Below, piece by piece: positions 1 through 54,370 of a stretch of DNA of 54,370 bases. Position numbers and translations under genes: made by a program. The first letter of the stretch is position 1. Every line of letters starts with the position of its first letter. The notes under the pieces were generated by a model, which was not told where the DNA came from, did no database searches, and saw only the letters and a program-made list of their open reading frames with translations. Origin of the DNA: Planctomycetota bacterium. GTDB taxonomy: Bacteria > Planctomycetota > Brocadiia > Brocadiales > Bathyanammoxibiaceae. Where the stretch lies: positions 6,322 through 60,691 of the forward strand of contig JAHFOV010000005.1 in the NCBI GenBank assembly GCA_023261505.1, in the 5' to 3' direction.

Positions 1-377
1 CGGAAAGCATGGAGGTAATGACGCAACACCTCAAAGGGGTTGCCTTCCATTTCCTTTATTCCGGTATCATCAGCCACCGTAACATTGCGGCCTTTACTTT
101 TAAGTACAAGAAAGGGCTGACATCCCAAAAAGGAGTATCTGGATAGACCAGGGAGTCTAAGGGCGCTGTCCAGGAAGAAGAGGGGTTGGTTGCTACCATG
201 CACGCTTAAGAGACGCTGAAAGGCCGTCACGGCATCGCAGTGATGGCGTATTTCTGTAACAATTAGTTCCCTGCTAAGTGCTGTAGGGGCAGGTTTTAAA
301 CCTGCCCCTACTCGGATTGCCTCAGGCAGTGTAGAGCAAAATGGCACTTCAATATGTCCTGATAAGAGAGATGTCAT
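1..377 (-). CDS. pabB: Aminodeoxychorismate/anthranilate synthase component I (PabB/TrpE family), 5' part, runs off the window
   Basis: Not in the ORF track. Manual translation from ATG 377 is open to the edge: MTSLLSG...LFFLDSALRLPGLSRYSFLGCQPF...GNPFEVLR, the FFLDS...RYSF N-terminal motif. Contains REP-derived VGAGLKPAPT. TrpE not excluded. Confidence 0.6.
   Translation of the reverse strand, partial: MTSLLSGHIEVPFCSTLPEAIRVGAGLKPAPTALSRELIVTEIRHHCDAVTAFQRLLSVHGSNQPLFFLDSALRLPGLSRYSFLGCQPFLVLKSKGRNVTVADDTGIKEMEGNPFEVLRHYLHAF
283..311. repeat. GTAG-type REP palindrome, family A (GTAGGGGCAGGT....ACCTGCCCCTAC), in frame in pabB
   Basis: Near-identical copies at 41456-41484, 47353-47381 and 47480-47507. 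Confidence 0.85.
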
Positions 378-519
378 GCTTTGGAAAGCCTCTCTAGTTG
401 AGCTTCTCCTTATAGAAAGCTTTAAGGAGCTAATTTTACTGGTTAGCCTATTTCACTGTCAAGAAACGGCTTGTGTATTCTAATACAACATCTGTTTTGA
501 AATTTGTAAACTGCTTCTA

Positions 520-2607
520 CTAAATTCCACACCTATTACCAATTATTTCCACAACATCCAGCACCTTTACAGTGCCAATATTTTTTGCTTTTAATCCATT
601 GGTGAGCATTGTTAGACAGAAGGGGCATGCGGTCGCGATGATATTAGCCCCCGTACCAAGGGCTTGCTCTGTGCGCATTTCGTTAATATTTCGCCCCAAC
701 CTGAGTTCCATCCACATGTGCCCTCCCCCACCCCCACAGCAGAAACCTTTGTTTCTGCTACTTTCCATCTCTTTAAACCCCAATCCGAGCCTTTTCAATA
801 TGTTTCTCGGGGGTTCATAAATGTCGTTGTGCCTGCCTAGATAACAGGGGTCGTGGTATGTAATCATTTCTTCCCTAGTCCCCCTCTTTCCCCCTTTATT
901 AAAGGGGGATTTAGGGGGATTATCCATTAGGAATGGCATGCGAGACAGAAGTCGCTCTATGTACTGTGTATGGTGCCACACCTTGAAATGTCCCCCAAAC
1001 TGGGGATACTCATTCTTTAGTGTGTTAAAGCAGTGAGGGCAACAGGTAACGATTTCTTTGATGTTGTATCTTTTCAGAAGTTCTATGTTCTCTCTGGCCA
1101 GGCGCTGGAACTCAAACTCATTACCAACCCTCCTCAGCGGGTCGCCATTACATCGTTCTTCCCTTCCCAGGATGGTAAAATCCACTCCTGCCTTCTGCAA
1201 AATTTTTGCAAAGGCCCTGACCGCCTTCCGGTTACGCTCATCAAAGGCCCCTGCACAGCCCACCCAAAATAGTAGGGGCATGGCGCGCCGTGCCCCTACG
1301 GGTTCCTGATGCAAGACCTTGATGCCCAGTCCTTCTGCCCAAGCCTCCCTTTTCTCCTGACTAAAGCCGTAAGGATTTTTGGTTGTTTCTATGTTCTTCA
1401 TGGTCCTGATAATTTCTGAGGGATACTTACCCAGCATCAGACCATGTCCACGTCTAAGGTCAATAATTTTCTGCAGATGTTCTATTCCTGCGGGGCAGGC
1501 CTCCTGGCAGGTCAGGCAGGCGGTGCAGGACCATGCTTCCATCGGGTCAATTTTGCCATCCATCAAGGGCGTGGGGACATCCTTTTCCATTTGTTCTTTA
1601 ACATCCAGGATAATCTTCTGTGGTCTGAGAGGTTTTCCGCTCAATGTGGCTGGACAGTAGGCATCACACCTGCCGCACCTCATGCAGGCATCCACATCAA
1701 GTAGTTGCTTCCAGGTAAAGTCTTTTGGAGTAATCGCTCCAAAGACATTTTTCTCAGCGGCCTGCCCTGAACCACTACGGTTCAGGGCCTGCTCAAAATC
1801 TATAGGGCTAAGTGCTCCCCTGGGAGTGGCGTGGGGCAAAAATAGGTTCAAAGGGACGGTAATGAGGTGTAAGAGGTTGGAGTAAGGTATATAGGCTATG
1901 AAGAACATAGCCATGCAAAGGTGAAACCACCACAGATTTCTGTGCAGGCTTTTAAGTGACGATTCTCTTAGCAGGGCCTTTAGTAACCCAGCAATTTGAT
2001 ACCCTACCGGCGAACAGGTCTCCCAGGGAGGGTTCAAAACGGCAATCCTGGACCCCTCTATAAGGAAGCCGGTTACAAGTATGAGAAATAATAGGCCCAG
2101 GATTACGGCATCCTCGGGCCTGTTTTTAAAATGCTTATGTTCTGTTAGGTATCGTCTGTAAGAGGCCAATACTATCCCGAGTAGCATCAGGGCGCCAAAG
2201 AGGTCAAGGGTAAAGGAATAATAGAGGTAAAATCTACCGTAAAGGATAGGCCAGTGGAGATGTAGTTGAATGGCTATCAGACAAGTGCCAATAAAGAGGA
2301 CAAAGAATCCAAAAAATATGAGTCCGTGAATAACCCCGGGCCATTTTTCTTTGAGTATTTCCCTGTGGCTGAAGATAAGCCAGAGGGTCTGTAGGGGCAG
2401 GGCTTGCCCCTGCCCAGGTCTTGTCCCAGCCCCATCGTCTTGGGCAACCGTCTGCCTGAGGCGGATTGCCCCTACAGGCCTCCCCTTTGACCAGAAAAGG
2501 TATCTACGATAAATACCGTAAAGAAAGAACCCAAGGGAGAGGGCAAAGAGGACATACATCCATTGATGGTGGTCTATATTCCAGAATATCTCCCTGGTAG
2601 GGAACAT
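520..2607 (-). CDS. Membrane Fe-S oxidoreductase, FadF/HdrD-like (NarI-like TM region, 2x4Fe-4S, CCG domains)
   Basis: CMRCGRC..CP and CTACLTC..CP motifs; CCPHC, YHDPCYLGR, CCGGGGG, ACPFC; N-terminal TM helices; next to an acyl-CoA dehydrogenase. Confidence 0.88.
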   Translation of the reverse strand: MFPTREIFWNIDHHQWMYVLFALSLGFFLYGIYRRYLFWSKGRPVGAIRLRQTVAQDDGAGTRPGQGQALPLQTLWLIFSHREILKEKWPGVIHGLIFFGFFVLFIGTCLIAIQLHLHWPILYGRFYLYYSFTLDLFGALMLLGIVLASYRRYLTEHKHFKNRPEDAVILGLLFLILVTGFLIEGSRIAVLNPPWETCSPVGYQIAGLLKALLRESSLKSLHRNLWWFHLCMAMFFIAYIPYSNLLHLITVPLNLFLPHATPRGALSPIDFEQALNRSGSGQAAEKNVFGAITPKDFTWKQLLDVDACMRCGRCDAYCPATLSGKPLRPQKIILDVKEQMEKDVPTPLMDGKIDPMEAWSCTACLTCQEACPAGIEHLQKIIDLRRGHGLMLGKYPSEIIRTMKNIETTKNPYGFSQEKREAWAEGLGIKVLHQEPVGARRAMPLLFWVGCAGAFDERNRKAVRAFAKILQKAGVDFTILGREERCNGDPLRRVGNEFEFQRLARENIELLKRYNIKEIVTCCPHCFNTLKNEYPQFGGHFKVWHHTQYIERLLSRMPFLMDNPPKSPFNKGGKRGTREEMITYHDPCYLGRHNDIYEPPRNILKRLGLGFKEMESSRNKGFCCGGGGGHMWMELRLGRNINEMRTEQALGTGANIIATACPFCLTMLTNGLKAKNIGTVKVLDVVEIIGNRCGI
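879..919. repeat. CCCCCTTT..TAAAGGGGG-type palindrome, in frame in the Fe-S oxidoreductase
   Basis: Inverted repeat TCCCCCT...CCCCCTTTATTAAAGGGGG...AGGGGGA; encodes NPPKSPFNKGGKRG. Confidence 0.7.
1272..1299. repeat. GTAG-type REP, in frame in the Fe-S oxidoreductase
   Basis: GTAGGGGCATGGCGCGCCGTGCCCCTAC; encodes VGARRAMPL. Confidence 0.8.
2390..2476. repeat. REP doublet with a nested 15-bp hairpin, in frame in the Fe-S oxidoreductase
   Basis: TGTAGGGGCA...TGCCCCTACA ends; TCTGCCTGAGGCGGA at 2451-2465. Confidence 0.8.
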
Positions 2608-5012: not shown

Positions 5013-5014
5013 CT

Positions 5015-14410: not shown

Positions 14411-16441
14411 ATGATAAGTCTTTTTGACAAGGCAAATATTGGACCTCTGGAGCTTAAAAACCGGTTGATTATGACGGCCATGGATGTGGGTTTTTCTACA
14501 GATGGCTTTATAAACGACCGCTTCATAGACTTTTACGCTGAGAGGGCAAGGGGTGGAGTGAGCCTAATAATAATAGGAGGTTGCTACCCTCACGAGAGTG
14601 GAAAGCACTGGAAGAGTATACTTGGCCTGGATGAAGACCTCTATATCCCCAGCCTTAAAAGGTTTACCGAAGCCATGCACCAACTCGGGGCTAAAACCGC
14701 CACCCAACTCCTTCATGGAGGTCGTTACGCCTCTAGCCTCTTCACAAAAAGGCAACCTGTATCCGCCTCCAGCGTGCCAAGCCGCCTGGCCAAGGATATT
14801 CCTAGACCCCTTACCATTCCCGAAATAAAAGAGATAATTAACAGTTACGCCAGGGCCGCTTTCAGGGCTAGGGAGGCGGGTTTTGATGCCGTGGAAATCC
14901 ATGGTGGCATGGGGTACCTAATAAACCAATTCTTATCACCTATAACCAATCAGAGAAAAGATGAGTACGGAGGGGATCTGCAGGGCAGACTCAGATTCGC
15001 CAGAGAGGTCGTGCAAGCTACCAGGGAGCTCGTGGAAAAGGATTTTCCTATTATCTTTAGGCTAGCGGGGGATGAGCTAATGATGGGGGGAAACAGGATA
15101 AAAGAGAACATCGAGATTGCCAGAGAATTAGCCAGAGTAGGGGTAGACGCCTTTCATGTCTCTCCAGGATGGCACGAGAGCAAGACCCCTATAATGGTTA
15201 TGGCCATTCCGAGAATGGCCTACACCTTCCTAGCGGCCTCTATCAAAGAGAATGTTAACCTGCCTGTTATAGCAGGTGTAAGGATAAATGACCTCTCGGT
15301 GGCTGAAGAATTCCTTAGAGATGGCCAAGCAGACTTTATAGCCATAGGCCGCCCCCTCATTGCAGACCCTGAACTTCCCAAAAAATATAGAGAAGGAACA
15401 TGGGAAGATATCAGGACGTGCATTGCGTGTAACCAGGGATGCTTTGATGAACTCTTGAATATGAAACCCATCTCCTGTCTTTACAACCCACAGGTGGGCC
15501 ATGAAAGAGAGTATATTATCAAGGAAGCACCTGTAAAGAAGAGGGTAATGATTGTAGGTGGCGGTCCTGGAGGGATGGAGGCTGCCAGAGTGGCTGCCTT
15601 GAGAGGACACCAGGTTGCCCTTTATGAAAAGGACTGCTACCTTGGGGGACAGCTACATTACGCCTACAAGCCTCCTGGTCGGGGAGAGTTCCAACATGTT
15701 ATCAGTTACCTTGAAAGACAAATACTAAAATTAGGGGTAAGTGTGAATCTTGGGATAAAGGTTGATACAGAGCTTATTAAAAAGGAACAACCACAGGTAG
15801 TTATTCTCTCCACAGGCTCCCTACCAATTATTCCCCCCATACTAGGGGTAAATGGCAAAAACGTGGTACTTGCCAGGGATGTCCTGGAGAGGAGGGTGCC
15901 GGTTGGAAATCCTGTGGCTATTATAGGGGGTGGGTCAGTGGGATGCGAAGTGGCCCTTTATGTGGCTAAACTGGGAAGCATGAGCCCAGAAGTAGCCCTC
16001 TTCCTCTTAAAGCACCAGATAATAGACCTTGCTACTGCCCTCCAGAGGACCCTCAGAGGGCACCGCAAGGTCACTGTACTTGAAATGAAGAAAAGACTGG
16101 GAAGCGGATTTGGACTTTCTACCCGTTGGGTCATCCTTCAGGAGATGGAAGAAACAGGTATAGAGACCCTAACCGGGGTAAAGGTAAAAGAGATAAAAGA
16201 ATCCGCCTCAGGCGGACCTGGGGGGATTCTATACGAGAAAGAAGGTAGAGGTGGGAGTGACCCTGCCACCTTTTTGCCTGCTGAAACAATCATCCTGGCA
16301 ACGGGCTACATGCCAAACAACTCCCTCTATCAGCAAATGGACAGCCTGGTGCCGGAGATGTATGCCATAGGGGATTGTGTGAAGGTCAGGACGGCTATGG
16401 AGGCCATCCACGAGGGTTTTAAAATCTCACTGAACATATAA
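14411..16441 (+). CDS. fadH: 2,4-dienoyl-CoA reductase-like NADH:flavin oxidoreductase (FadH family)
   Basis: OYE barrel (EIHGGMGYLINQFLSP.TN.R.D.YGG), CIACNQGC, two Rossmann motifs. Confidence 0.8.
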   Translation: MISLFDKANIGPLELKNRLIMTAMDVGFSTDGFINDRFIDFYAERARGGVSLIIIGGCYPHESGKHWKSILGLDEDLYIPSLKRFTEAMHQLGAKTATQLLHGGRYASSLFTKRQPVSASSVPSRLAKDIPRPLTIPEIKEIINSYARAAFRAREAGFDAVEIHGGMGYLINQFLSPITNQRKDEYGGDLQGRLRFAREVVQATRELVEKDFPIIFRLAGDELMMGGNRIKENIEIARELARVGVDAFHVSPGWHESKTPIMVMAIPRMAYTFLAASIKENVNLPVIAGVRINDLSVAEEFLRDGQADFIAIGRPLIADPELPKKYREGTWEDIRTCIACNQGCFDELLNMKPISCLYNPQVGHEREYIIKEAPVKKRVMIVGGGPGGMEAARVAALRGHQVALYEKDCYLGGQLHYAYKPPGRGEFQHVISYLERQILKLGVSVNLGIKVDTELIKKEQPQVVILSTGSLPIIPPILGVNGKNVVLARDVLERRVPVGNPVAIIGGGSVGCEVALYVAKLGSMSPEVALFLLKHQIIDLATALQRTLRGHRKVTVLEMKKRLGSGFGLSTRWVILQEMEETGIETLTGVKVKEIKESASGGPGGILYEKEGRGGSDPATFLPAETIILATGYMPNNSLYQQMDSLVPEMYAIGDCVKVRTAMEAIHEGFKISLNI

Positions 16442-27671: not shown

Positions 27672-29044
27672 CGCAGTTCTTGCCCCTTCTCTTTAGTGCC
27701 TACTACTTACGCAGGCTGAAGCCTGCGGCTACTTACTGCTTACTGCTTACTGCCTACTGTCTACTGTCTACTGTCTACTGCTTTGCAGAGGAGGCCCTTA
27801 AGATATGCCCAAAGTGCTTCAAGAGCTACCCTGCCGAGAGCAACTTCTGCTCGGTAGATGGAGAGAAGCTGATTACTGCAGTCTCTAAACTAGTGTGTCC
27901 CAAATGTGGCAGGAGGGGCGAAACTGGAGAGAAATTCTGCCCACAGGACGGAGAAAAACTGGTACCAGAGGGAGAAGAAGGGATAGAAAAAAAGAGGCTG
28001 GAGGCCTTGAAACATTATGAGGAAGGAAACCGCCTGTCAGACCAAAAGGAATATGACAAAGCCCTGGAAGAGTATTTAGCGGCAGAAAGGCTCTACGAGG
28101 AGCTGCCTGAACTCCATTACAACATCGGTTGGCTATACAGCAAGCTAGGCGCTGCAGAAGAGGCAATAAAACACATGAAGAGATATATAGCCCTTAAACC
28201 CCAGGCTGCGGATATAAACGATGCACTTGTTTATATTAATCTCCTCCAGAAGGGCATTGACGAGGCACAAAAGAGAAGTACTACTCTTCAGGACAGAAAC
28301 GAGGCCATGGAAAATGCGCTGGCAAAAAACAGAGAAAAATGGGATATGGTTCTCGTGGGAGCCGGGGAATTTATTATGGGCTCAGATGACCAGAGAGACG
28401 ATTGTTACCCAAACCATAATGTGTATCTTCCCGCCTTTTACATTGACCGTTACGAGGTAACCAACGCCCAGTACTATGAATTCCTTGAGTATATAAAAAA
28501 GACAGGAGACCACAGCAAATGCCATAGGGATGAACCTCCTGGAAAAGACCACACGCCCAGGAACTGGGAAGACAGCTATTATGACAACCCAGATTTCCCT
28601 GTTACAAGGATAGACTGGTACGATGCCTACGCTTACGCCGCCTGGGCAGGCAAGCGCCTTCCCACAGAGGCTGAGTGGGAAAAGGCAGCCAGGGGGCCAA
28701 ATGGTAACCGCTTCCCCTGGGGAAACGAGTGGAATCCCGAAAACTGTAATGTGGGGGGGGAGCAGAAGCCTGTGGGGAGTTATCCGCAAGGAGTCAGCCC
28801 CTATGGATGCCATGACATGGCAGGAAGTGTGGCAGAATGGGTGGCCGATTGGTATGACCCTGAATACTATCAAAGAAGTCACTCCAATAACCCCCAGGGC
28901 CCAGAAAAAGGGGTAAAAAAGGTCATTAGAGGTGGCTCGCGTTTCGGCAGGGGCTTCCTGCTCCGCTCCACCGCGCGCAAGTGCGAGGCCCCTAACATTC
29001 ATAACCAGGCCGTAGGCTTCCGCTGTGTCAAAAAACCTTCCTAA
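27668..29044 (+). CDS. Exported protein: double zinc ribbon + TPR + FGE-sulfatase (SUMF1) domain
   Basis: CPKC...FC..DG twice, TPR, YEVTNAQY, RLPTEAEWEKAARG, DMAGSVAEW, GFRC. Confidence 0.88.
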   Translation: MTQFLPLLFSAYYLRRLKPAATYCLLLTAYCLLSTVYCFAEEALKICPKCFKSYPAESNFCSVDGEKLITAVSKLVCPKCGRRGETGEKFCPQDGEKLVPEGEEGIEKKRLEALKHYEEGNRLSDQKEYDKALEEYLAAERLYEELPELHYNIGWLYSKLGAAEEAIKHMKRYIALKPQAADINDALVYINLLQKGIDEAQKRSTTLQDRNEAMENALAKNREKWDMVLVGAGEFIMGSDDQRDDCYPNHNVYLPAFYIDRYEVTNAQYYEFLEYIKKTGDHSKCHRDEPPGKDHTPRNWEDSYYDNPDFPVTRIDWYDAYAYAAWAGKRLPTEAEWEKAARGPNGNRFPWGNEWNPENCNVGGEQKPVGSYPQGVSPYGCHDMAGSVAEWVADWYDPEYYQRSHSNNPQGPEKGVKKVIRGGSRFGRGFLLRSTARKCEAPNIHNQAVGFRCVKKPS

Positions 29045-35594: not shown

Positions 35595-36467
35595 CTACTT
35601 CTTGAAAAAATCCCTCCCCAGGGCTGTCCTTGAGTAGTAATAGAGGTACTGCTGGGCATAACCTCCATAGTTGCCAAAGTAGTCCCTAGCGAAGGAGTTA
35701 ATCAATTTAGGTGAAACTTTTTGGCCCTTAAAATAAAAGGTGCGTAATGCCCTCTCTATCCATCTATCTACAGGAAAGGCCTCTACAAAGCCCAGGGAAA
35801 ATAGGAGTACACAATCCGCCACCTTTTCTCCTACCCCTGGCAGTTCCATTAATCTCCCCTTCGCCTCAGTATAAGGCAATGACTTCAAGGATTCTAAAAA
35901 ACGCCTGTCCGCAGTCCGAGAAATCTCGCAAATGTAATTAGACCTAAAGCCCAGGCCTGTTTCTTTGAGCAGGGGCACGGCATGCCGCGCCGCTACGTTT
36001 CTTACATCGTCAGGTTCCGGCAGGCTGTACCCCTTGACCTCGCCCAGGCGAACTTCTCTTCCGAATGCCCTGGCCAGGCCATCCAGACATCTCTGTATCT
36101 TTGGGATGTTAGAGGCAATAGAACAGATATAGGATAAGAGACAGTCCCAGGGGTCTTGTCTTATAAGCCTGAGGCCGTAGTACAAGTGGAAGGCCTTCTT
36201 AGTGTACCTGTCCTGTGGTATCTCAGCTAATATATCTTTTAGAGCGGTATCAAGAGAAAAAAAATGTCTAATAAAATCCTTATCTGCCCCTGAAAACTCC
36301 AGTCGGTCGCTATCCTGTCTTACCCTAAAAAATTTATTTCCTGAATGGATGTAGTACCAATCCCCCACCCTTTTGTATCTGAAGAACTGTCCACACTCCA
36401 TTGTGTGGATTAGATGAAAATCTCTCACCTTAACAGAAGATGTCTGTTCAATAGATTTTTTAATCAA
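35595..36467 (-). CDS. 8-oxoguanine DNA glycosylase (OGG1-like HhH-GPD)
   Basis: MECGQFFR, LRLIRQDPW, GLGFR, LPGVGEKVADC, FPVD, GYAQQYLY. Confidence 0.9.
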   Translation of the reverse strand: MIKKSIEQTSSVKVRDFHLIHTMECGQFFRYKRVGDWYYIHSGNKFFRVRQDSDRLEFSGADKDFIRHFFSLDTALKDILAEIPQDRYTKKAFHLYYGLRLIRQDPWDCLLSYICSIASNIPKIQRCLDGLARAFGREVRLGEVKGYSLPEPDDVRNVAARHAVPLLKETGLGFRSNYICEISRTADRRFLESLKSLPYTEAKGRLMELPGVGEKVADCVLLFSLGFVEAFPVDRWIERALRTFYFKGQKVSPKLINSFARDYFGNYGGYAQQYLYYYSRTALGRDFFKK

Positions 36468-41455: not shown

Positions 41456-41484
41456 GTAGGGGCAGGTTTCAAACCTGCCCCTAC
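41456..41484. repeat. Family A REP between convergent accC and rh50, possible terminator
   Basis: GTAGGGGCAGGTTTCAAACCTGCCCCTAC followed by TTTT. Confidence 0.85.
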
Positions 41485-45803: not shown

Positions 45804-48089
45804 CTATAACATACTGTAAGGGTCTACGTCTACAATAATCCTCATGCCACCTCTATTGCTTTTAGGCACTCCCTGTAAAATGCCTAAGGCTGACTGTAAC
45901 GCCTCCTTCTGTGGGGACCTTAGGCTCAACTGCCAGCGGAATTGGTTCTTGATTTTAGGGATAGGCGCCGGTGCTGGGCCCACCACCTCCACTTTCTGGG
46001 TATTGGCTTTCTCCCTCAACATATTTGCCAGCTTTTGGGCCTTATCCAGTACCCCTTCTGCTTTACGCCCCACAAGGACTATTCTGGCCATATAACCAAA
46101 GGGAGGATAGCCTAGCTCCCTGCGGTACTCCAGTTCTCTATCGGCGAAACCTTCATAGTCGTGGGCAGCCGCCTTTACGATAGCATATTGTTTAGGGCTA
46201 AAAGTCTGAATGACCACCTTACCCCCCTTTGGACCTCTACCTGTCCTACCTGCCACCTGTGCCAGGAGTTGGAAAGTCCTCTCACAGGCCCTGAAGTCTG
46301 GCATGTTCAATATGGTATCGGCCGAGATGACTCCCACCAGGGTGACATTGGGAAAGTCTAACCCCTTGGCAATCATCTGGGTCCCTACAAGGATCTGTAC
46401 CTCTCCCTTTTCAAAGGCCTTGAGTGCCTTTTCATGAACACCCCTCCCCTTCATAGTATCGCTATCCATCCTCAGCGCCTTATACCCGGGAAAGTAGTGT
46501 GCCAGCTCTTCCTCAATCCTCTCCGTGCCTAGCCCAAAATAATTCATCTTTGCCCCTGCACACTCCGGACAGCCTTCCGGAGGCTCCGCTTCAAAGGAGC
46601 AGTAATGGCATAAGGCACTGTGCCTTTTTTTGTGATAAGTCAGGGGTATGTCACACCTTTTGCACCTAAGAACGTAACCACACCTCATACAACTCACGAA
46701 GGGAGAAAAACCCCTGCGATTAAGGAAAAGGAGTGCCTGCTCTCCCCTTGCGAGGCAGTCTTTCATGTAAAGTTCTAGTTTTCTGGATACGAGCGTGGTG
46801 CGTCTGCCTTTGTGGAATTCTTCCCTCAAGTCCACTATTTCTACTTTGGGCATGGGGCGGTGTCCAATCCTCTGGCTGAGTATTGCCCTTTGGTACCTTC
46901 CCATCAAGGCATTAAAATAGGTTTCTAAAGAAGGCGTAGCAGAACCGAGAATAACTGTTGCCCCTTCCTCTCTTGCCCTCATAAGGGCTACTTCTCTGGC
47001 ATGATAACGTGGAGAGGTATCCTGTTTGTAAGTTACTTCATGTTCTTCATCTACCACTATCAGGCCCAGGTTCTCTACAGGGGCGAAGACGGCGGAGCGG
47101 GCTCCTATCACTACCCTGGCCTTCCCTTCTCTTATAGCCTGCCACTGCCTGTAACGCTCGGCCCCAGTAAGATTGCTGTGAAGGACGGCGACGTTATCAA
47201 AACGAGCGCTGAAGCGCTCCACGGCCTGCGGGGTAAGGGATATCTCTGGCACCAGGACTATCGCCCCACGCCCCATAGCCAGCACTTCTTCTATGGCCCT
47301 TAGATATACCTCGGTCTTCCCACTCCCTGTCACCCCCTGGAGGAGCACTACTGAAGGGGCAGGTTTCACACCTGCCCCTACAGAAAGTTTCCTTATAAGG
47401 CTTAGGGCCTGCTCTTGCTCGGGGGTAAGTTCAGGTCCGCATGAGGCGGGTGACAATTTCTCGTCGGCAAATATTCCACTAGGGGCAGGTGTGAAACCTG
47501 CCCCTACATTGGGCTGGTCATATATCTCCACGAACCCCTTCCTGACGAGCTCCTTTAACCCACCCAGTTTACAACCGCTCTGTTGGGAAAGTTCTCTAAG
47601 GGGGATGCCATTGTTAGACTTTAAGAGTACTTCCAGGGCACTGGCCTGCCTGGGGGCCTTTTTTTTGAACTCTTCTAGCGTCTTAAGGACGGTATCTTTG
47701 TCTTTTATGAGTCTAAGGGCTTTGAAGGTCTGTCGGGAGTGGCCCTGCCACTTTAGCCCCTTCTTTACAGCAAAAGGAAGGGCCGCCTCCACAGCCTCTC
47801 CCCAGGTACATTGATAGTACTGGGCTATCTCCCGGGTAATGCGCAGCATCTTCTCCCCGAGGAGTGGCTGGCGGTCCAGTACCTCTTTTATTTCCTTTAG
47901 TTCCATGGCTGCGGGTGAATCGGGGAAACCCACACAGTAGCCATCCACCAGCCTGTGCCCTAAGGGCACTTTTACCCGGCTTCCAATCCTTAGGACGGGC
48001 ATAAGGGTGTCGGGGACCTTATAATATAAGGTCTTGTAAAGAGGGGCGTTAACTACCACCTCGACAAAATTAGGATACACCTCCGCCAC
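45804..48089 (-). CDS. priA: Primosomal protein N'
   Basis: GVTGSGKTEVY, LVPEISLTPQ, DEEHE, Cys-rich region, GTQMIAKGLDFP, QVAGRTGR; start uncertain. Confidence 0.96.
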   Translation of the reverse strand: MAEVYPNFVEVVVNAPLYKTLYYKVPDTLMPVLRIGSRVKVPLGHRLVDGYCVGFPDSPAAMELKEIKEVLDRQPLLGEKMLRITREIAQYYQCTWGEAVEAALPFAVKKGLKWQGHSRQTFKALRLIKDKDTVLKTLEEFKKKAPRQASALEVLLKSNNGIPLRELSQQSGCKLGGLKELVRKGFVEIYDQPNVGAGFTPAPSGIFADEKLSPASCGPELTPEQEQALSLIRKLSVGAGVKPAPSVVLLQGVTGSGKTEVYLRAIEEVLAMGRGAIVLVPEISLTPQAVERFSARFDNVAVLHSNLTGAERYRQWQAIREGKARVVIGARSAVFAPVENLGLIVVDEEHEVTYKQDTSPRYHAREVALMRAREEGATVILGSATPSLETYFNALMGRYQRAILSQRIGHRPMPKVEIVDLREEFHKGRRTTLVSRKLELYMKDCLARGEQALLFLNRRGFSPFVSCMRCGYVLRCKRCDIPLTYHKKRHSALCHYCSFEAEPPEGCPECAGAKMNYFGLGTERIEEELAHYFPGYKALRMDSDTMKGRGVHEKALKAFEKGEVQILVGTQMIAKGLDFPNVTLVGVISADTILNMPDFRACERTFQLLAQVAGRTGRGPKGGKVVIQTFSPKQYAIVKAAAHDYEGFADRELEYRRELGYPPFGYMARIVLVGRKAEGVLDKAQKLANMLREKANTQKVEVVGPAPAPIPKIKNQFRWQLSLRSPQKEALQSALGILQGVPKSNRGGMRIIVDVDPYSML

Positions 48090-48510: not shown

Positions 48511-48514
48511 ATTT

Positions 48515-49613: not shown

Positions 49614-50402
49614 ATGTCAGTAAAGGTTGAGGTGGGAAAAGCTGTAGATACTGGCCTGGTTCGCAGGCAGAATGAAGATAGTATCTTGACTACGGAGTTA
49701 ACGCTTAGCGCCGGGGATGGTACATCCTTTGGTCTTTACGCTGTGGCAGATGGAATGGGTGGTCTTGAGGCAGGTGAGGTTGCAAGTGACCTTGCACTCA
49801 GGGTTCTGGCTGATAGTGTAACCAGGGGTCTCCTCCTGCCCCAGGCGCAAGGAGAACTATCCGTTTTAGATGAGGCATTTCTGTCGAGAACGCTCTTATA
49901 TGCGCTAAAGGTAGCCAATGGCTGGGTTCATTCACAAAGTCAAGCTAAAGGCATTGTCATGGGTACAACCCTGGCAGGGGCGTTAATAATGAACGATATG
50001 GCTTATATCTTCAATGTAGGAGACAGCCGGGTTTATCTCTTGGAAGGTAAGCATCTTCGGCAGGTAACTAAAGACCATTCCCTCGTGGCCGAACTGGTGG
50101 CTGCTGGAAAGATTACCCCTGAAGACATTTACACCCATCCGCAACGGAACATTATCACCCGCTGTCTGGGGACACATGATAGCGTTGAGGTTGACCTCTT
50201 TGTAGAAAGGCTAAAATCAGGCATGTCTCTCCTTATCTGTTCCGATGGACTATGGGAGATGGTGCGAGACGATGAGATGAAGAATACCCTGTTAAAGGCA
50301 GATAAACCCCAGGCCGCTTGTGACCAATTGGTGAGAAAGGCTAACGAGAATGGTGGCGTTGACAACATCTCAGTTATTATTGTGAGAATGAGAGAAAGTT
50401 AA
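49614..50402 (+). CDS. PP2C-family Ser/Thr phosphatase (Stp1-like)
   Basis: R..NED, VADGMGG, MGTT, NVGDSR, CSDGL, GGVDNI. Confidence 0.93.
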   Translation: MSVKVEVGKAVDTGLVRRQNEDSILTTELTLSAGDGTSFGLYAVADGMGGLEAGEVASDLALRVLADSVTRGLLLPQAQGELSVLDEAFLSRTLLYALKVANGWVHSQSQAKGIVMGTTLAGALIMNDMAYIFNVGDSRVYLLEGKHLRQVTKDHSLVAELVAAGKITPEDIYTHPQRNIITRCLGTHDSVEVDLFVERLKSGMSLLICSDGLWEMVRDDEMKNTLLKADKPQAACDQLVRKANENGGVDNISVIIVRMRES

Positions 50403-50417
50403 GCCTGATTTTTCAGC

Positions 50418-51143
50418 CTAACCATTCCCTGAGTCCAGCCAGCCCTTCTTCCATTTCGTTAGGATAAACCACTGCACTATTATGCAGGCGGAAAATATAC
50501 CTATTAAGTAAAACCATACATCAAAAGCCCCTTTAATCTTTATCTCTTTGACTAACTCGCAGGCACACCATAAAAGTAAGACTGTAGAATAGGTATTTTG
50601 CTCTTTCCTGAAGAAACGCTTCCACGACCACTTTTCCCACGGAATTGCCTTGTACTGATTTGACTTGAAAGAAAGAAAGAATCTGGGCACGGTTTCCCTA
50701 TACTTATCGTATTCCGCTTCAAATGTTTTGCTAAGAAATTTTTCTTCACTGGCTACTACGGCGTATGTAATGAGCCAAAAACCTAAAACACTTACCACTG
50801 CTAGATATAAATTAGAAAATACAGCAGCGAATCCCAGGCAGATAAAAAAGTTGCCCAGGTACCTGGGATTTCTGGTATAGGCGTATGCACCTGAAACAAG
50901 GAGTCTTCTTGTCTTTGTTTCTTCATTTCCATTACGGACCCCTCGGCTTCCAGCCGCTATTGCCACAGCCCTAATCGCTTCTCCCATTAAAATAGAAATC
51001 AACCCCGCCAGGTCTACGAGCCTCTCTATTGTCATACTTCCAAGGACGAATTTGTCTCTCATGTAGAAAAAGGCAATGATAAGAAAAGGTAAGGGCAATA
51101 TACCTCTGAATTTGTCGAGACCCTTGAGCCTCTTTAATGTCAT
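50418..51143 (-). CDS. Isoprenylcysteine carboxylmethyltransferase / PEMT-family membrane protein
   Basis: LLVSGAYAYTRNPRYLG...EEKFL...Y..Y...VPRF. Confidence 0.82.
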   Translation of the reverse strand: MTLKRLKGLDKFRGILPLPFLIIAFFYMRDKFVLGSMTIERLVDLAGLISILMGEAIRAVAIAAGSRGVRNGNEETKTRRLLVSGAYAYTRNPRYLGNFFICLGFAAVFSNLYLAVVSVLGFWLITYAVVASEEKFLSKTFEAEYDKYRETVPRFFLSFKSNQYKAIPWEKWSWKRFFRKEQNTYSTVLLLWCACELVKEIKIKGAFDVWFYLIGIFSACIIVQWFILTKWKKGWLDSGNG

Positions 51144-51238
51144 AAAATTGTCTCTTAATTTAAAAAGGATTTTATTAAATCATGAAGGCCTTGGTATGTA
51201 ATCTATCCTGATGTTTATTTTGCTATTTATTAAAAAAA

Positions 51239-52606
51239 CTACTCTGTTGCCCCTACTTTATAGCCCTTTCTTCCGAGGAGGGCGAAGGTATTGACCTTTC
51301 CAGCCTCCACTCCAGGCTGGTCAAAGGGATTTATACCGAAGAGTTTTCCAGCCAGGGCCGTTTGAACCTGGAACATGTAGAGGAGTCCCCCTACATGGAA
51401 GGCCGTGATTTCAGGGAGGTATATAGTGTAGTTAGGGCGTCCTGCCTGGGTAAGGGCTAGTTCTGTCCCTCTACGTTCTGCCTCCATAAGCCCTGCCAGG
51501 GTATGTCCAGAAAGATATTCAAAATCCGTTTCAGGGGATAGGGGGATTTTCACCCTTGATTTAAACTTATCGACTGCCAGGAAGGTTATGACCTTATCAA
51601 AAGGTCCTTCCATGTAGAGCTGGAGCTGAGAGTGCTGGTCGGTGGGTCCCACAGCTTTTACGGGTGTGGGACCGCAGTGAATAATTTTACCTTTAACGGA
51701 GAACTTCTTGCCCAGGCTCTCAGCCCAGAGCTGGCAAAACCATTCTCCAACAGCCTTCAGGGCCGCTGAGTAGGGCATTAGCACCGTAATATGTTTACCT
51801 TTTTTGTAGCTTAAGTATTGAAGGCAGGCCCCAAGCACGGCAGGATTTTCTTCTACAGTCTCTTTTTGGCACTGGAGATCCATCTCCGCCGCGCCTGCAA
51901 GGAGTGCATTAATATCGATACCGCTCACGGCCGCAGAAAGTAGACCCACAGGGCTAAGAACTGAATATCTACCACCTACCCCTTTAGGAATACACAGCTT
52001 TTCATAACCCTCCTTTGCTGCCAGCCTTCTCAAGGCCCCGTCTTCAGGGTCTGTAGTGGTTATGATATGCTTTGTGTAGGCGTTCCCCAGGCTTTTCTTC
52101 AGCATCTCCTTGACTATTAAAAACTGGGCCACGGTCTCCACTGTGGCACCAGATTTAGAAATAACATTGAAGACAGTTTGCTTCAGGTCAAGGGTCTCAA
52201 GCAACCCGGCAAAAAGGTCTGGGTCTATAGTGTCTATAACATGAATTCTAGGCGTAGGGGCGTATCGCAATACGCCCCTACTTTTCCCCTCCTGGCTGTG
52301 ATAGGGTGGGTTAAGAGCCTGATGCAGGGCTATATTACCGAGCGCAGAACCCCCAATACCCAGCACTACAAAATCTGTCATCCAAGACCTTAATTCATCG
52401 GCAAGTTTTTTTATCTTTTCAGCAACTTCCTTTTGATAAGGCAGGTCCAGGAATTGATGCTGTCCGTTAGACCTCTCCTCCTTCAGCTCCTGGAGGTAGC
52501 GTAGGGCCTGCCTTCCTGGCTTTTGCAACTCAGCGGGGGTCGCGCCGTGCCTGCCCACGGTATCCCTGAGCATATTTCTAAAATCAAGCCGTAGTATTTC
52601 TTTCAT
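51239..52606 (-). CDS. pgi: Glucose-6-phosphate isomerase
   Basis: GIGGSALG, ISKSG.T.ET, GGRYSVLS, QLWAESLGK, DQHSQLQLY, PFDQPGVE.GK. ATG 52606; the ORF-track extension upstream is repeat-derived. Confidence 0.95.
   Translation of the reverse strand: MKEILRLDFRNMLRDTVGRHGATPAELQKPGRQALRYLQELKEERSNGQHQFLDLPYQKEVAEKIKKLADELRSWMTDFVVLGIGGSALGNIALHQALNPPYHSQEGKSRGVLRYAPTPRIHVIDTIDPDLFAGLLETLDLKQTVFNVISKSGATVETVAQFLIVKEMLKKSLGNAYTKHIITTTDPEDGALRRLAAKEGYEKLCIPKGVGGRYSVLSPVGLLSAAVSGIDINALLAGAAEMDLQCQKETVEENPAVLGACLQYLSYKKGKHITVLMPYSAALKAVGEWFCQLWAESLGKKFSVKGKIIHCGPTPVKAVGPTDQHSQLQLYMEGPFDKVITFLAVDKFKSRVKIPLSPETDFEYLSGHTLAGLMEAERRGTELALTQAGRPNYTIYLPEITAFHVGGLLYMFQVQTALAGKLFGINPFDQPGVEAGKVNTFALLGRKGYKVGATE
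52254..52281. repeat. GTAG-type REP, in frame in pgi
   Basis: GTAGGGGCGTATCGCAATACGCCCCTAC; encodes RGVLRYAPT. Confidence 0.82.
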
Positions 52607-52617
52607 ATCAGAAAAGC

Positions 52618-52671
52618 GTAGCCGCAGGTCATGCCAGAGGCAGATTCGCCTATGGCGAACTTTAGCCTGCG
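52618..52671. repeat. Family B REP with a 31-bp insert (intermediate nesting state)
   Basis: GTAGCCGCAGG[TCATGCCAGAGGCAGATTCGCCTATGGCGAA]CTTTAGCCTGCG; degenerate REPs follow to about 52780. Confidence 0.88.
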
Positions 52672-53184
52672 TGGTGCAATAATGCAGCAAACCTAAAGGT
52701 TCGCCCTACCTTGCAAAATGTAGGGCAAGGCTTTACTTTTGACCGTAAAACTGTAGCCGAAAGCTTTAGTCCGCGTGCGCCAAGAAAAGAAGATAATGAA
52801 AGGAGGGCTAATAGTCAAGAGGCTGAAGCATAAACTCGAAAGATAACCATGATATCTTACCTAAAGTGTTACCCATGTCCATATACTCCACAAAATACCA
52901 ACATTTTTTTCTTGGCTTTCTAGAGAAAAGTTGTATATATACAGCTTTAGAGTGCCCTCTTAGCACGCTTTGGACAGACCTACTAGGAAAAGATAGGGGG
53001 CGTTAGCCAGGCGTTTAACGGCGTCCGCCTCATACGGATGGCGGGCCGATTAGTGGGATAAAGCAGAAATCCCGCACCAGAAGTCTAGAGGTGGGGTATG
53101 GGGGTTATTTTGATTAACCTCTAGTCCCTATCCCCTAATCTCTGGCCCCTTACTCAATTGTTTATTAACCTGGAGGTCTGTCTT

Positions 53185-54370
53185 ATGAAGTCAACGACAA
53201 GGCAAGTATCCCGCATCCTATTTCCTTCACTTCTTATCCTGATGATTTGCCTGGGCCAGGCTCTGGCCCAGAGTTCTCCCACAGAGCCACAAAAAACCGA
53301 GGTCATAAATTACCTGGGCAACCTCCCCGCCTTCTTCATTGAGAACCAGGGCCAGACGGCCGAAGAAGTAAGATATTACTTCAAGGGAAAAGACTCTGTA
53401 TATTTCACAGAGGAGGGCGTTGTTTTTCAAAAGGCGGGGGCTAGGGCTCGTGAACTAGGGGCCAGTGCCGATGTAGGGGCATCCGCCTCAGGCGGACTCG
53501 TGCCCCTACACGATGGCGGGGGAGAAAACGTCCCAGACGAACCGACACGCTACACTTCCCAAGATGCAAGGGGGGAGGGTGAACATACCCAATCCCTGTC
53601 CTATCATCTAGAATTTGTGGGCGCCAACCCCACCTCCCCTCAGGCAAGAAACGCCCTGGAGGGTAAGGTGAATTACTTTATTGGCAATGACCCCTCCAAA
53701 TGGCATAGCGATATTTCTACCTATCAGGAGATTCTTTATCCCAGACTTTACGAGGGAATAGATGCAGTATACAAAGGCGTCCCTGGCGGGATGAAGTATG
53801 AGTTCATAGTCCACCCCGGGACCAATCCTGAGGACATAAAACTGGCCTACACAGGGATAGAGGGCCTCAGCCTAGATGAATCAGGCAATTTAATAATCCA
53901 TACTGCCCTGGGAGAGGTAAAGGACGAGAAGCCCTATACCTATCAGGAGATAGATGGAAGACAGGTGGAGGTAGAGTGCAAATTTGCAATCCAGTCTAGT
54001 TGTCATGCTGAGCGAAGCGAAGCATCTAGATTCTTCGCTAACGCTCAGAATGACAGATTACTTGACGCAGAGGCAAGAGCAGTCGGTGAAAGAAAATTCG
54101 TCTACGGTTTTGAGGTCACTTCCTACGACCCGCGCTACCCCCTCATCATAGACCCAGGCCTGGTGTACTCTACCTTCCTCGGGGGGAGTAATAACGATGG
54201 GGGCATTGCCATAGCCGTGGACTCCTCAGGTAATGCCTATGTGACGGGATATACTAACTCAAGCGGCTTCCCCACCACCCCGGGGGCGTTTGATGTAACC
54301 CTTGGAGGGGGAGGGAATGCCTTTGTGACCAAGCTGAATCCTACAGGCTCAGGCCTTATCTACTCCACCT
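53185..54370 (+). CDS. Secreted SBBP-repeat (beta-propeller) surface protein, 5' part, runs off the window
   Basis: Not in the ORF track. GGAGG RBS, signal peptide, FIENQGQ, VNYFIGNDPSKW, KYEFIVHPG, LIIDPGLVYSTFLGG, IAVDSSGNAYVTG; open to the edge. Confidence 0.9.
   Translation, partial: MKSTTRQVSRILFPSLLILMICLGQALAQSSPTEPQKTEVINYLGNLPAFFIENQGQTAEEVRYYFKGKDSVYFTEEGVVFQKAGARARELGASADVGASASGGLVPLHDGGGENVPDEPTRYTSQDARGEGEHTQSLSYHLEFVGANPTSPQARNALEGKVNYFIGNDPSKWHSDISTYQEILYPRLYEGIDAVYKGVPGGMKYEFIVHPGTNPEDIKLAYTGIEGLSLDESGNLIIHTALGEVKDEKPYTYQEIDGRQVEVECKFAIQSSCHAERSEASRFFANAQNDRLLDAEARAVGERKFVYGFEVTSYDPRYPLIIDPGLVYSTFLGGSNNDGGIAIAVDSSGNAYVTGYTNSSGFPTTPGAFDVTLGGGGNAFVTKLNPTGSGLIYST
54001..54055. 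repeat. GTCAT.CTGAG-type REP, in frame in the SBBP gene
   Basis: TGTCATGCTGAGCG...CGCTCAGAATGACA; encodes CHAERSEASRFFANAQND. Confidence 0.82.

What the first reader, a model, noticed from the sequence alone, without database searches (positions are those of the whole stretch)
283..54055. REP-like palindromes from several families inserted in frame in at least eight intact genes
Seen: palindromes that also occur between genes are translated inside pabB (VGAGLKPAPT), the Fe-S oxidoreductase (3 inserts), fadH, the FGE-domain gene, ogg (VAARHAVPL), priA (2), pgi (RGVLRYAPT) and the SBBP gene (2). All ORFs stay open, different frames and strands are used, and catalytic motifs are intact. Known: in-frame palindromic inserts are described for Rickettsia palindromic elements, whereas typical REPs are extragenic. 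Inference: about a dozen coding inserts from several families in 54 kb is an unusually heavy load, and is a mechanism for adding new peptide loops to core enzymes.
Basis: partly seen in the sequence, partly recalled or inferred. Interest (0 to 1): 0.82.

Follow-up and report, generated by a model that had tools for sequence, protein, structure and literature searches.

The report
In-frame REP palindromes inside core genes
Short GTAG-tagged palindromic repeats, of the kind moved by REP-associated transposases, sit in frame inside many intact housekeeping genes of this groundwater Brocadiales bacterium and account for about half of the recent length changes examined in six of its proteins; this is a known phenomenon seen here at high load.

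Summary
Palindromes of 28-29 nt that start GTAGGG and end CCCTAC, plus other short repeat families, lie inside open reading frames of pabB, an Fe-S/CCG oxidoreductase (4 sites), fadH (2 tiny ones), an FGE-domain gene (N-terminus), ogg, priA (2-3), pgi and an SBBP gene (2). Orthologue alignments show they are lineage-specific additions in variable, gap-prone stretches. The genes keep conserved motifs.

Named relatives place the genome in Planctomycetota, order Brocadiales. Most families are canonical GTAG-tagged REPs. A relative's intact RAYT transposase gene is flanked by them, and this genome has three weaker RAYT-like genes.

Genome-wide, 31 of 75 intact GTAGGG palindromes lie well inside long ORFs (random positions: 69%). 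None is read in the frame that contains TAG. Among close relatives, 11 of 23 protein indels carry such an element, against 9% of matched control segments.

Intragenic GTAG REPs were already described (Di Nocera et al. 2013) and in-frame Rickettsia RPEs earlier, so this is a new, heavily loaded member of a known kind.

Three things remain unexplained. The same GTAG anchor carries different hairpin subfamilies in different species. A 15-nt palindrome adds exactly three codons in the five clean cases seen. The RAYT-like genes themselves contain in-frame REP inserts.

The parts
283..311 (-). 29-nt perfect GTAGGGGC...GCCCCTAC palindrome in the N-terminal tail of pabB (peptide VGAGLKPAPT, aa 23-32)
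   Evidence: Orthologue N-termini are unconserved, and a relative (G010) carries a different 28-nt copy nearby, net +24 nt versus two congeners.
876..922 (-). Double CCCCCTTTA-type palindrome without a GTAG tag, in a hypervariable stretch of the Fe-S/CCG oxidoreductase (aa 562-578)
   Evidence: Relatives carry unrelated GTAG palindromes in the same stretch.
1272..1299 (-). 28-nt GTAG palindrome in the Fe-S/CCG oxidoreductase (VGARRAMPL, aa 437-445)
   Evidence: It sits at the same codon position in four species of genus g2 with two perfect interior variants, is decayed in G004, and is not seen in the more distant orthologues.
1760..1792 (-). Hairpin of a different family (GCCCTGNACC stem) in the Fe-S/CCG oxidoreductase (aa 272-283)
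   Evidence: At this spot relatives have a 29-nt GTAG palindrome, and G012 has a doublet of this hairpin family nested in that palindrome's loop.
2391..2475 (-). 85-nt REP doublet with GTAG at both outer ends, carrying a nested copy of the 15-nt palindrome (one mismatch); encodes aa 45-72 of the Fe-S/CCG oxidoreductase
   Evidence: Present in G010 and G001, absent from G008 and G012 (same genus) and from all more distant orthologues.
16202..16216 (+). 15-nt palindrome TCCGCCTCAGGCGGA in fadH, net +9 nt (+3 aa)
   Evidence: The family has 183 copies genome-wide, against 18 for the next most common palindrome of the same form.
16253..16270 (+). 18-nt dispersed repeat (GGGAGTGNCCCTGCCACC type) in fadH, net +15 nt (+5 aa)
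   Evidence: 36 copies genome-wide with at most 1 mismatch.
27707..27780 (+). GTAG-tagged CGCAGGCT...AGCCTGCG palindrome followed by heptamer tandem repeats; together they encode the basic and hydrophobic N-terminal segment of the FGE-domain ORF
   Evidence: G008 shares the arrangement; two congeners have an ordinary signal-like N-terminus. Translation of this part is not shown.
35969..35996 (-). Decayed 28-nt GTAG palindrome in ogg (VAARHAVPL, aa 158-166)
   Evidence: Intact variants sit at the same column in G001 and G008. Absent from G004 and 16 more distant orthologues.
47349..47385 (-). GTAG palindrome (one end mutated) in priA just upstream of the Walker A motif (VGAGVKPAPS, aa 237-246)
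   Evidence: It aligns largely to a gap against solved PriA.
47478..47508 (-). GTAG palindrome (one end mutated) in the priA linker (VGAGFTPAPS, aa 203-212)
   Evidence: G001 and G008 carry two other REP types a few codons away.
47731..47749 (-). Copy of the 18-nt dispersed repeat in priA (QGHSR segment), identical to a copy in livH at 48808-48826
52254..52281 (-). 28-nt perfect GTAG palindrome in pgi, read in the second open frame (RGVLRYAPT, aa 138-146), net +30 nt versus genus g2
   Evidence: It lies just before the invariant P147. The protein retains all 72 columns that are invariant in a 30-sequence alignment.
51249..51256 (-). Half-site GCCCCTAC at the very C-terminus of pgi; the tail conserved in more distant orthologues is missing. 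Possible REP-borne stop.
   Evidence: Weak: one arm only.
53473..53509 (+). 37-nt GTAG palindrome with the 15-nt palindrome nested at its apex, in the SBBP/DUF7948 gene (VGASASGGLVPL)
   Evidence: A paralogue on contig C25 and the G009 homologue carry plain 28-nt variants at the same alignment column.
54001..54055 (+). 55-nt hairpin repeat in a hypervariable linker of the SBBP gene
   Evidence: Metagenome contig depth at this place is far above that of the flanks.
41456..41484 (.). Intergenic copy of the same 29-nt palindrome, 25 nt after the accC stop; reference for the extragenic state

Best explanation
These are REP elements of the GTAG-tagged superfamily: short hairpin-forming repeats spread by REP-associated tyrosine transposases (RAYTs) through single-stranded DNA. 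A few other very short dispersed palindromes accompany them. They land in genes as well as between genes. Purifying selection removes copies that shift the frame, bring a stop (the frame that reads TAG) or hit structured parts of the protein. What is left is net-3n, stop-free copies in permissive variable segments, read as Gly/Ala/Arg/Pro-rich peptides (VGA...PL or RG...APT). They then persist through speciation and decay into ordinary-looking sequence. The same segments are hit again, or their hairpins are replaced.

Shown: repeat families, GTAG tags, in-frame location, lineage specificity, frame filter, RAYT association. Inferred: RAYT-driven mobility, selection as the only filter, translation of the inserts.
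For: - Family structure and excess over chance: 85 GTAGGG...CCCTAC sites, of which 65 are good palindromes, mostly 28-29 nt. Seven permuted hexamers gave 2-13 sites. The reversed-pattern control gave 0 in 31 genomes.
- GTAG tags: families F2, F3, F5 and F6 carry GTAG on exactly one side in 44 of 49, 69 of 71, 38 of 44 and 26 of 33 copies.
- RAYT link: the family model NF047646 matches 27 of 31 related genomes, 22 of them above its cut-off. The intact RAYT of G008 has GTAGGGTGCGT-type hairpins directly upstream and downstream. G000 has three RAYT-like ORFs with HUH and Tyr motifs, all below cut-off.
- Selection filter: 0 of 31 interior copies are read in the TAG frame; 20 use one open frame and 11 the other. 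Copies with two stop-free frames are interior in 26 of 51 cases, with one frame 5 of 22, with none 0 of 2. Interior fractions are below the random 69% in the eight families with 20 or more copies; F9, with 2 copies, has both interior.
- Lineage specificity and variable-segment location.
- Host genes look intact: pgi keeps 72 of 72 invariant columns; the priA Walker A motif is conserved next to an insert.
- Indel census: 11 of 23 blocks against 41 of 441 controls.
Against: - No clean target-site signature. Filled and empty alleles differ by +12, +15, +18, +21, +24 and +30 nt, and adjacent bases are often replaced. Simple cut-and-paste of a fixed unit is therefore not demonstrated.
- G000's own RAYT-like genes score below the family cut-off and carry inserts.
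- Interior copies are no more decayed than the others (mean 1.06 against 1.07 arm mismatches). That is unexpected if they were simply old neutral relics.
- Translation across an insert is not shown.
- Two families (CCCCCTTT type and the 15-nt palindrome) have no GTAG tag and may spread differently.
Confidence: 0.8

Rival explanations
1. Hairpin exchange at a fixed anchor. Once a GTAG REP sits in a gene, its interior is repeatedly replaced by that of another subfamily, either by RAYT-mediated exchange at the GTAG or by gene conversion from dispersed copies. Independent insertion is not needed. The host segment becomes a swappable peptide cassette.
For: At five sites the GTAG lies in the same alignment column in two or more genomes while the interior belongs to different discrete subfamilies that are each multi-copy elsewhere:
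- Fe-S site 3: two perfect variants that differ by two compensating pairs.
- Fe-S columns 591-623.
- ogg: three variants.
- SBBP: three variants, seen at protein level only.
- priA column 209: a one-sided REP against a two-sided REP.

Interior copies stay as well paired as the others.
Against: Within one Fe-S gene, insert presence/absence supports all three possible splits of the four g2 species, and at columns 652-660 the flanks co-vary with the insert. Homologous recombination between lineages can therefore shuffle alleles without any exchange mechanism. Independent hits on the only tolerated spot are also possible. No event has been caught in progress.
Confidence: 0.25
2. The palindromes are ordinary native coding sequence or chance matches, not inserted repeats.
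For: This is shown for one place: fadH 15183-15239 is conserved in 15 of 15 orthologues. I also judge it true for the GTAGGGGC matches in valS (27429) and guaB (45057), which have no matching inverted copy of the motif. That judgement rests on recalled family conservation.
Against: For the listed parts, orthologues lack the segment. The same 28-29-nt sequences recur tens to hundreds of times per genome. Shuffles and reversed patterns give almost none.
Confidence: 0.03
3. The inserts are kept because they are useful, for example as intragenic mRNA hairpins that tune translation or decay, as protein binding sites on DNA, or as functional peptide segments. They are not merely tolerated.
For: Some are retained at the same site across genera with intact pairing. 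Subfamily sequences are conserved across genera whose proteins are only about 60-80% identical. Di Nocera et al. noted a bias towards replication and repair genes; here priA and ogg carry inserts.
Against: Host proteins are functionally unrelated. Presence varies between congeners. Decayed copies exist in ogg, in priA and in G004's Fe-S gene. The fraction of copies inside genes tracks the number of stop-free frames, as expected from passive filtering.
Confidence: 0.1
4. The inserts are not translated: the affected ORFs are pseudogenes, or the hairpins are removed from the RNA.
For: No direct evidence of translation was obtained. The RNA contigs laid did not span any insert.
Against: All host ORFs are full length with strong family matches and conserved residues. 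Every interior copy avoids the stop-containing frame. No known mechanism excises 28-nt hairpins from bacterial mRNA (established knowledge, not tested).
Confidence: 0.03

Closest known systems
GTAG-tagged REPs and their RAYT transposases (REPtrons); intragenic GTAG REPs of Di Nocera, De Gregorio and Rocco 2013 (PMC3733652; passages read)
   Same: Terminal GTAG. A 20-40-nt stem-loop. Several families and subfamilies with alternative complementary stem bases in one genome. Singlets, dimers and clusters. RAYT genes flanked by the repeats. GTAG ends supplying TAG stops. A minority of copies inside genes, many of them in replication and repair genes. Occurrence in Planctomycetes and other PVC bacteria.
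   Different: The commonest family here is a full palindrome with the tag at both ends. About 40% of its intact copies lie deep inside long ORFs. Nesting is seen (a 15-nt palindrome or a hairpin doublet inside a REP loop, inside a gene). The same anchor carries different subfamilies in different species. I could not see that paper's Figure 7 or Additional file 3 (supplements closed), so loads per species cannot be compared.
Rickettsia palindromic elements (RPE)
   Same: Palindromic repeats inserted in frame in unrelated housekeeping genes, with the proteins apparently still functional. The 2024 review passage reports nearly half of 44 copies inside ORFs (PMC10969869).
   Different: RPEs are about 150 bp, encode a conserved peptide of tens of residues and occur in obligate intracellular alphaproteobacteria. 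Here the units are 15-37 nt (one 85-nt doublet), add 3-28 residues and occur in a free-living groundwater planctomycete lineage. Di Nocera et al. place RPE-4 and RPE-6 in the CGTC superfamily, not the GTAG one. No sequence comparison was made here.
REPINs (REP doublets forming hairpins; Bertels and Rainey 2011, PMC3116915; passages read)
   Same: RAYT-associated REPs. The 85-nt element at 2391-2475, and a doublet nested in G012's Fe-S gene, are inverted REP pairs with a spacer.
   Different: Most copies here are singlets whose two arms already form the palindrome. REPINs are described as extragenic.
Small dispersed repeats of heterocystous cyanobacteria (Elhai et al. 2008; seen only as a cited title, content recalled)
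   Same: Mobile-looking repeats of about 20-27 nt or less, some found inside other repeats and in conserved regions (recalled). This resembles the 15-nt and 18-nt families here.
   Different: Different phylum and different sequences. No comparison was made.

Membership tests
GTAG-tagged REP / RAYT system | Conserved GTAG tetranucleotide at an end of the repeat | tested here: met
   All 75 F1 copies meet it by definition. F2 44 of 49, F3 69 of 71, F5 38 of 44 and F6 26 of 33 copies carry GTAG on exactly one side. F4 (0 of 50) and the 15-nt palindrome (4 of 126) do not.
GTAG-tagged REP / RAYT system | Short (20-40 nt) imperfect palindrome able to form a stem-loop | tested here: met
   Stems of 10-14 bp with loops of 0-5 nt. 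65 of 85 sites are good palindromes, mostly 28-29 nt.
GTAG-tagged REP / RAYT system | Dispersed, multi-copy, far above chance | tested here: met
   41 exact-ended copies in G000 and up to 181 in relatives; reversed-pattern control 0. 19 octamer matches against 2.28 in window shuffles.
GTAG-tagged REP / RAYT system | A RAYT (HUH/Tyr transposase) gene flanked by copies of the repeat | tested here: met
   G008: a 198.8-bit RAYT with GTAGGGTGCGT-type hairpins on both sides. G000: three RAYT-like ORFs of about 60 bits or less, below the 80-bit cut-off. REPs were seen next to all three: clusters on both sides of the C118 ORF, two hairpins upstream of the C40 ORF and one about 870 nt downstream of the C14 ORF.
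GTAG-tagged REP / RAYT system | Predominantly extragenic location | tested here: inconclusive
   Copies are depleted in genes relative to random positions (F1 31 of 75 interior against 69%; other families 0-37%). The interior share is nonetheless large.
GTAG-tagged REP / RAYT system | Binding, cleavage and mobilisation by the RAYT | not testable with these tools
   Needs biochemistry or genetics.
Rickettsia palindromic elements | Units of about 100-150 bp encoding a conserved peptide module | tested here: not met
   Units here are 15-37 nt, with one 85-nt doublet.
Rickettsia palindromic elements | In-frame insertion in functional ORFs at permissive sites | tested here: met
   Surface position in a 3-D structure was not tested.
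REPIN | Two REPs in inverted orientation with a spacer, forming one long hairpin, as the replicating unit | tested here: inconclusive
   One doublet in the window (2391-2475) and one nested in a relative. Most copies are singlets. No genome-wide ratio of singlets to doublets was computed.
MITE | 70-300 bp with terminal inverted repeats of an IS and target-site duplications | tested here: not met
   The elements are shorter. No constant duplication was seen at filled against empty sites.

The most novel reading that the evidence does not exclude
Inside genes of this Brocadiales lineage, a GTAG-anchored REP behaves as a replaceable cassette. The anchor stays at one codon while the hairpin, and so the encoded 8-12 residues, is swapped between discrete subfamilies. 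An untagged 15-nt palindrome adds exactly three codons wherever it lands, including the apex of REP hairpins. If so, REP/RAYT activity is a built-in, largely frame-preserving generator of peptide variation in core enzymes, including the RAYT genes themselves.
Probability: 0.2. Interest if true: 0.7.

Novelty: new member of a known kind. Interest (0 to 1): 0.45.

Why it matters
REPs are usually treated as extragenic. Here a large share of copies is tolerated inside essential genes, and about half of the recent protein length changes examined in six proteins trace to them. That makes selfish hairpin repeats a measurable source of protein indels in a free-living lineage, not only in Rickettsia.

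It also matters for annotation. Recurrent peptides such as VGA...PL in MAG proteins mark repeat insertions, and repeat-borne N-termini can mislead start-codon calls.

The lineage has many filled and empty alleles among close species. That makes it a good natural system for asking how RAYT-type elements choose targets and whether hairpins are exchanged in place.

Tried and rejected
- Cyanobacterial origin. I assumed this at first from the heptamer repeats and GC content. It was rejected when named relatives turned out to be Planctomycetota/Brocadiales MAGs.
- The fadH palindrome at 15183-15239 as an insert. Rejected: it is conserved native sequence.
- Expression and RNA-level excision. Four coded runs (2 DNA, 2 metatranscriptome, one study, possibly the source sample) were laid on 34400-54370. 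All are contigs that break at the repeats. No RNA contig spans an insert. The joints listed have short sides and look like cross-matches between repeat copies. No conclusion was drawn.
- Structure prediction of pgi (alignment A1) to place the insert on a fold. The tool was not accepting jobs, so surface-loop location rests only on alignment gaps and on pairwise alignments to solved PriA and PGI sequences.
- A constant target-site duplication or fixed net length for the 28-29-nt elements. None was found.
- Age difference between copies inside genes and the others, judged by arm mismatches. None was found.
- Whether the +9-nt rule of the 15-nt palindrome is mechanistic. All four nested 37-nt copies lie in long ORFs, where 3n is enforced anyway, so this stays undecided.
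- A Pfam scan of a neighbouring split ORF failed on stop codons and was not repeated.
- Literature. The terms 'anammox' plus 'repetitive extragenic palindrom' returned one irrelevant paper. I found nothing in the held library on REPs in Brocadiales.
Full report
**What is in the window.** The 54-kb window is contig C64:6322-60691 of a 2.5-Mb assembly that is 96.5% complete. It is densely packed with ordinary housekeeping genes, all with strong Pfam matches. These include an Fe-S/CCG oxidoreductase, acyl-CoA dehydrogenase, lysyl/asparaginyl-type tRNA synthetase, ketosynthases, fadH-like reductase, aldehyde dehydrogenase, proC, aspartokinase, leuA, valS, an FGE-domain protein, lpxB, ogg, dnaA, accB/accC, amt, guaB, priA, livH and pgi, plus the N-terminal part of pabB at the window's start. 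I first took the heptamer repeats and 46% GC for a cyanobacterium. That was wrong. The closest named records are Planctomycetota/Brocadiales MAGs, and the runs that hold the DNA are groundwater metagenomes.

**The observation.** GTAGGGGC occurs 19 times, against 2.28 expected and at most 7 in 100 shuffles. Perfect or near-perfect palindromes that start GTAGGGGC and end GCCCCTAC lie at 283-311, 1272-1299, 41456-41484, 52254-52281 and 53473-53509. Copies with a mutated end lie at 47349-47385 and 47478-47508. Further elements are:
- an 85-nt doublet at 2391-2475;
- a hairpin of another family at 1760-1792;
- a double CCCCCTTTA-type palindrome at 876-922 (all three in the Fe-S gene);
- a decayed copy in ogg;
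- a 55-nt hairpin at 54001-54055 in the SBBP gene;
- a CGCAGGCT-type palindrome plus heptamer repeats in the first 40 codons of the FGE ORF.

In fadH the conspicuous imperfect palindrome at 15183-15239 is native, conserved in 15 of 15 orthologues. Two tiny repeats (16202-16216 and 16253-16270) account for the only two lineage-specific indels of that protein.

**Are they inserts?** I fetched the orthologues of seven genes from 30 related genomes: 13 of the same family and 17 of the same order.
- priA: both segments fall in gaps of all more distant orthologues and largely in gaps against solved PriA. The second lies a few residues before the conserved Walker A motif.
- pgi: the nine-residue segment is unique to this genome, net +30 nt against the sister genus. 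It abuts the invariant P147. The protein keeps all 72 columns that are invariant in a 30-sequence alignment.
- Fe-S protein: all four segments lie in indel-prone stretches.
- ogg: present in this genome and in two species of genus g2; absent from G004 and 16 further orthologues.
- SBBP: a paralogue on contig C25 and a homologue in G009 carry related palindromes at the same column.
- pabB and FGE: the elements lie in unconserved N-terminal stretches. For pabB no canonical start codon lies between the element and the conserved core. For FGE the repeat-encoded stretch looks like a basic plus hydrophobic signal segment that replaces an ordinary one seen in two congeners. Translation of these two is plausible but unproven.

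**What they are.** Genome-wide there are 85 GTAGGG...CCCTAC sites, 65 of them good palindromes, mostly 28 or 29 nt. They fall into discrete subfamilies that differ by compensating changes in the inner stem. Seven permuted hexamers give 2-13 sites. Other families (F2, F3, F5, F6) are hairpins with GTAG on exactly one side in 44 of 49, 69 of 71, 38 of 44 and 26 of 33 copies. That is the canonical shape of GTAG-tagged REPs.

The REP-associated tyrosine transposase model NF047646 matches 27 of 31 related genomes, 22 of them above its cut-off. The intact RAYT of G008 is flanked on both sides by GTAGGGTGCGT-type hairpins, which makes it a REPtron. G000 has three RAYT-like ORFs with HUH and Tyr motifs. 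They score only up to about 60 bits, below the 80-bit cut-off, because each is interrupted by repeat-derived in-frame segments just after the HUH motif.

Exact-ended copies number 41 in G000, 94-181 in the four species of genus g2, 76 in G005 and 96 in G017. Six of the 31 genomes have none and six more have one. A reversed-pattern control gives 0 everywhere.

**Load and filter.** As a gene proxy I used stop-to-stop ORFs of at least 150 codons, and required at least 30 codons to either ORF end. By that measure, 69% of random 28-mers are 'interior'. The repeat families score as follows:

| Family | Interior copies |
|---|---|
| F1 (GTAGGG palindromes) | 31 of 75 |
| F2 | 7 of 50 |
| F3 | 5 of 71 |
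| F4a | 8 of 30 |
| F4b | 0 of 20 |
| F5 | 13 of 45 |
| F6 | 11 of 33 |
| 15-nt palindrome | 46 of 126 |

So the elements are depleted in genes, but many survive there: 123 intact interior copies in 2.5 Mb. The window holds 7, against 2.67 expected, and it also holds decayed copies that the patterns miss.

Of the 31 interior F1 copies, 20 are read as GTA-GGG (VGA...), 11 in the other open frame (xRG...APT), and none in the frame that contains TAG. Copies with two stop-free frames are interior in 26 of 51 cases, with one frame in 5 of 22, and with none in 0 of 2. This is what a passive selection filter predicts.

**Contribution to protein indels.** I took six gene families and the four to six closest genomes of each, and listed every internal indel block of at least three columns. 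In 11 of 23 blocks the longest allele carries GTAGGG/CCCTAC or a hairpin of at least 8 pairs. The same holds for 41 of 441 length-matched control segments from the same genes. By eye, several of the remaining blocks contain the 15-nt or 18-nt repeats or decayed copies.

**What does not fit a simple insertion model.**
- Filled and empty alleles within genus g2 differ by +12 to +30 nt, and adjacent bases are often replaced. No constant duplication is seen.
- At five sites the GTAG sits in the same column in different genomes while the interior belongs to different subfamilies.
- In one Fe-S gene, insert presence/absence supports all three possible groupings of the four g2 species. At one of those sites the flanks co-vary with the insert, which points to recombination between lineages.
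- Copies inside genes are as well paired as the others.

I therefore keep 'hairpin exchange or conversion at a fixed anchor' as a live add-on hypothesis at about 0.2-0.25.

**Very small repeats.**
- TCCGCCTSAGGCGGA is by far the commonest 6-N-6 palindrome in the genome: 183 copies with any loop base, against 18 for the next and a median of 1. Exact copies number 104 here, 119-222 in genus g2 and 107 in G017. None was found in the seven f4 genomes, the five g9 genomes or the two f3 genomes searched.
- In the five clean cases seen it adds exactly 9 nt: fadH, two REP loops in Fe-S genes, the SBBP REP and a priA segment. All of these lie in coding sequence, where 3n is enforced anyway.
- An 18-nt repeat of the GGGAGTGGCCCTGCCAC type has 36 copies and lies in fadH, priA and livH.

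**Comparison with the literature.**
- Di Nocera et al. 2013 (PMC3733652; passages read) defined GTAG and CGTC REP superfamilies in more than 80 species, including Planctomycetes. They reported REPs wholly inside ORFs in several species, many of them in replication and repair genes. They cautioned that N-terminal cases may be misannotated starts, and argued that surviving inserts sit in linkers or loops. I could not see their Figure 7 or Additional file 3, so loads cannot be compared.
- Rickettsia RPEs are the classic in-frame case (review PMC10969869).
- REPINs and RAYTs: PMC3116915.
- RAYT biochemistry and IS200/IS605-like single-strand transposition are recalled knowledge (Nunvar 2010 and Ton-Hoang 2012, not read here).
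- I found nothing in the held library on REPs in anammox or Brocadiales genomes.

**Verdict.** This is a heavily loaded, well-resolved new example of intragenic GTAG REPs. Three side observations are worth following up: anchor-fixed hairpin variation, a 15-nt palindrome that adds three codons, and RAYT-like genes that carry their own in-frame REPs.

Noticed in passing
window 16202-16216, 34510-34524 and 53482-53496, and genome-wide: The 15-nt palindrome TCCGCCTSAGGCGGA is the dominant short palindrome of the genome: 183 copies with any loop base, next best 18. It is confined to this family and a few related genera (104-222 exact copies per genome in the richest; 0 in the seven f4, five g9 and two f3 genomes searched). 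It has no GTAG tag.
   Followed up: partly
window 16253-16270 (fadH), 47731-47749 (priA), 48808-48826 (livH): An 18-nt dispersed repeat (GGGAGTGGCCCTGCCAC type) has 36 copies with unique flanks genome-wide. The priA and livH copies are 19 of 19 identical. Whether livH gained residues from it was not checked.
   Followed up: partly
G000 contigs C118 (L031 1393-2223, minus strand), C40 (L253 1426-2004, minus strand), C14 (L255 1126-1749): All three RAYT-like ORFs of this genome keep the HUH and Tyr motifs but carry repeat-derived in-frame segments right after the HUH motif. The C40 insert resembles the 85-nt doublet of the Fe-S gene. The C14 insert is of the GTTGAAAAT subfamily. The C118 ORF is flanked by clusters of one-sided GTAG REPs.
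   Followed up: partly
window 35467-35547 and 44107-44187; inverted 34848-34925 and 48248-48325: About 80-nt intergenic repeats, 90-96% identical and in both orientations (MITE-like). Metagenome contig depth rises sharply at 43724-44389.
   Followed up: no
window 4943-5019, 8867-8940, 9197-9234, 17390-17466, 17827-17888, 19044-19120, 23325-23392, 27729-27780: Heptamer tandem repeats (AATTACA-like and CTGTCTA-like) fill many intergenic spacers. In the FGE ORF they encode a hydrophobic N-terminal stretch. They resemble cyanobacterial STRR repeats but occur here in a planctomycete.
   Followed up: no
Fe-S oxidoreductase orthologues L033-L036 (genus g2): Presence/absence of three different inserts supports all three possible pairings of the four species within one 2-kb gene. 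At one site the flanks differ between allele classes. This suggests a mosaic gene shaped by recombination between species.
   Followed up: partly
window 54001-54055; L247 about 1405-1459 and 2125-2175: The 55-nt hairpin in the SBBP gene has very high depth in the metagenome contigs (about 2446 at 54040, against bin means of about 13-36 over 44390-53713). By eye, a similar sequence lies on both sides of the intact RAYT of G008.
   Followed up: no
window 53751-54001: DNA contigs of two runs join 53751 to 54001 with three other letters between (a 249-nt skip). The sides are only 26-28 nt, so this may be the C25 paralogue or a strain variant of the SBBP gene.
   Followed up: no
L037 (G004 Fe-S orthologue), L064 (G009 pgi), L115 (G030 ogg): These orthologues show in-frame stop codons in the search tables (1 TAA; 1 TGA; 1 TGA plus 1 TAG). 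They may be pseudogenes, assembly errors or recoding. Not examined.
   Followed up: no
window 19215-19280 and 20799-20876: Pairs of GTAG-tagged CGCAGGCT/CGCAACCT hairpins bracket the aldehyde dehydrogenase gene on both sides. This is a classic extragenic REP arrangement beside the intragenic ones.
   Followed up: no
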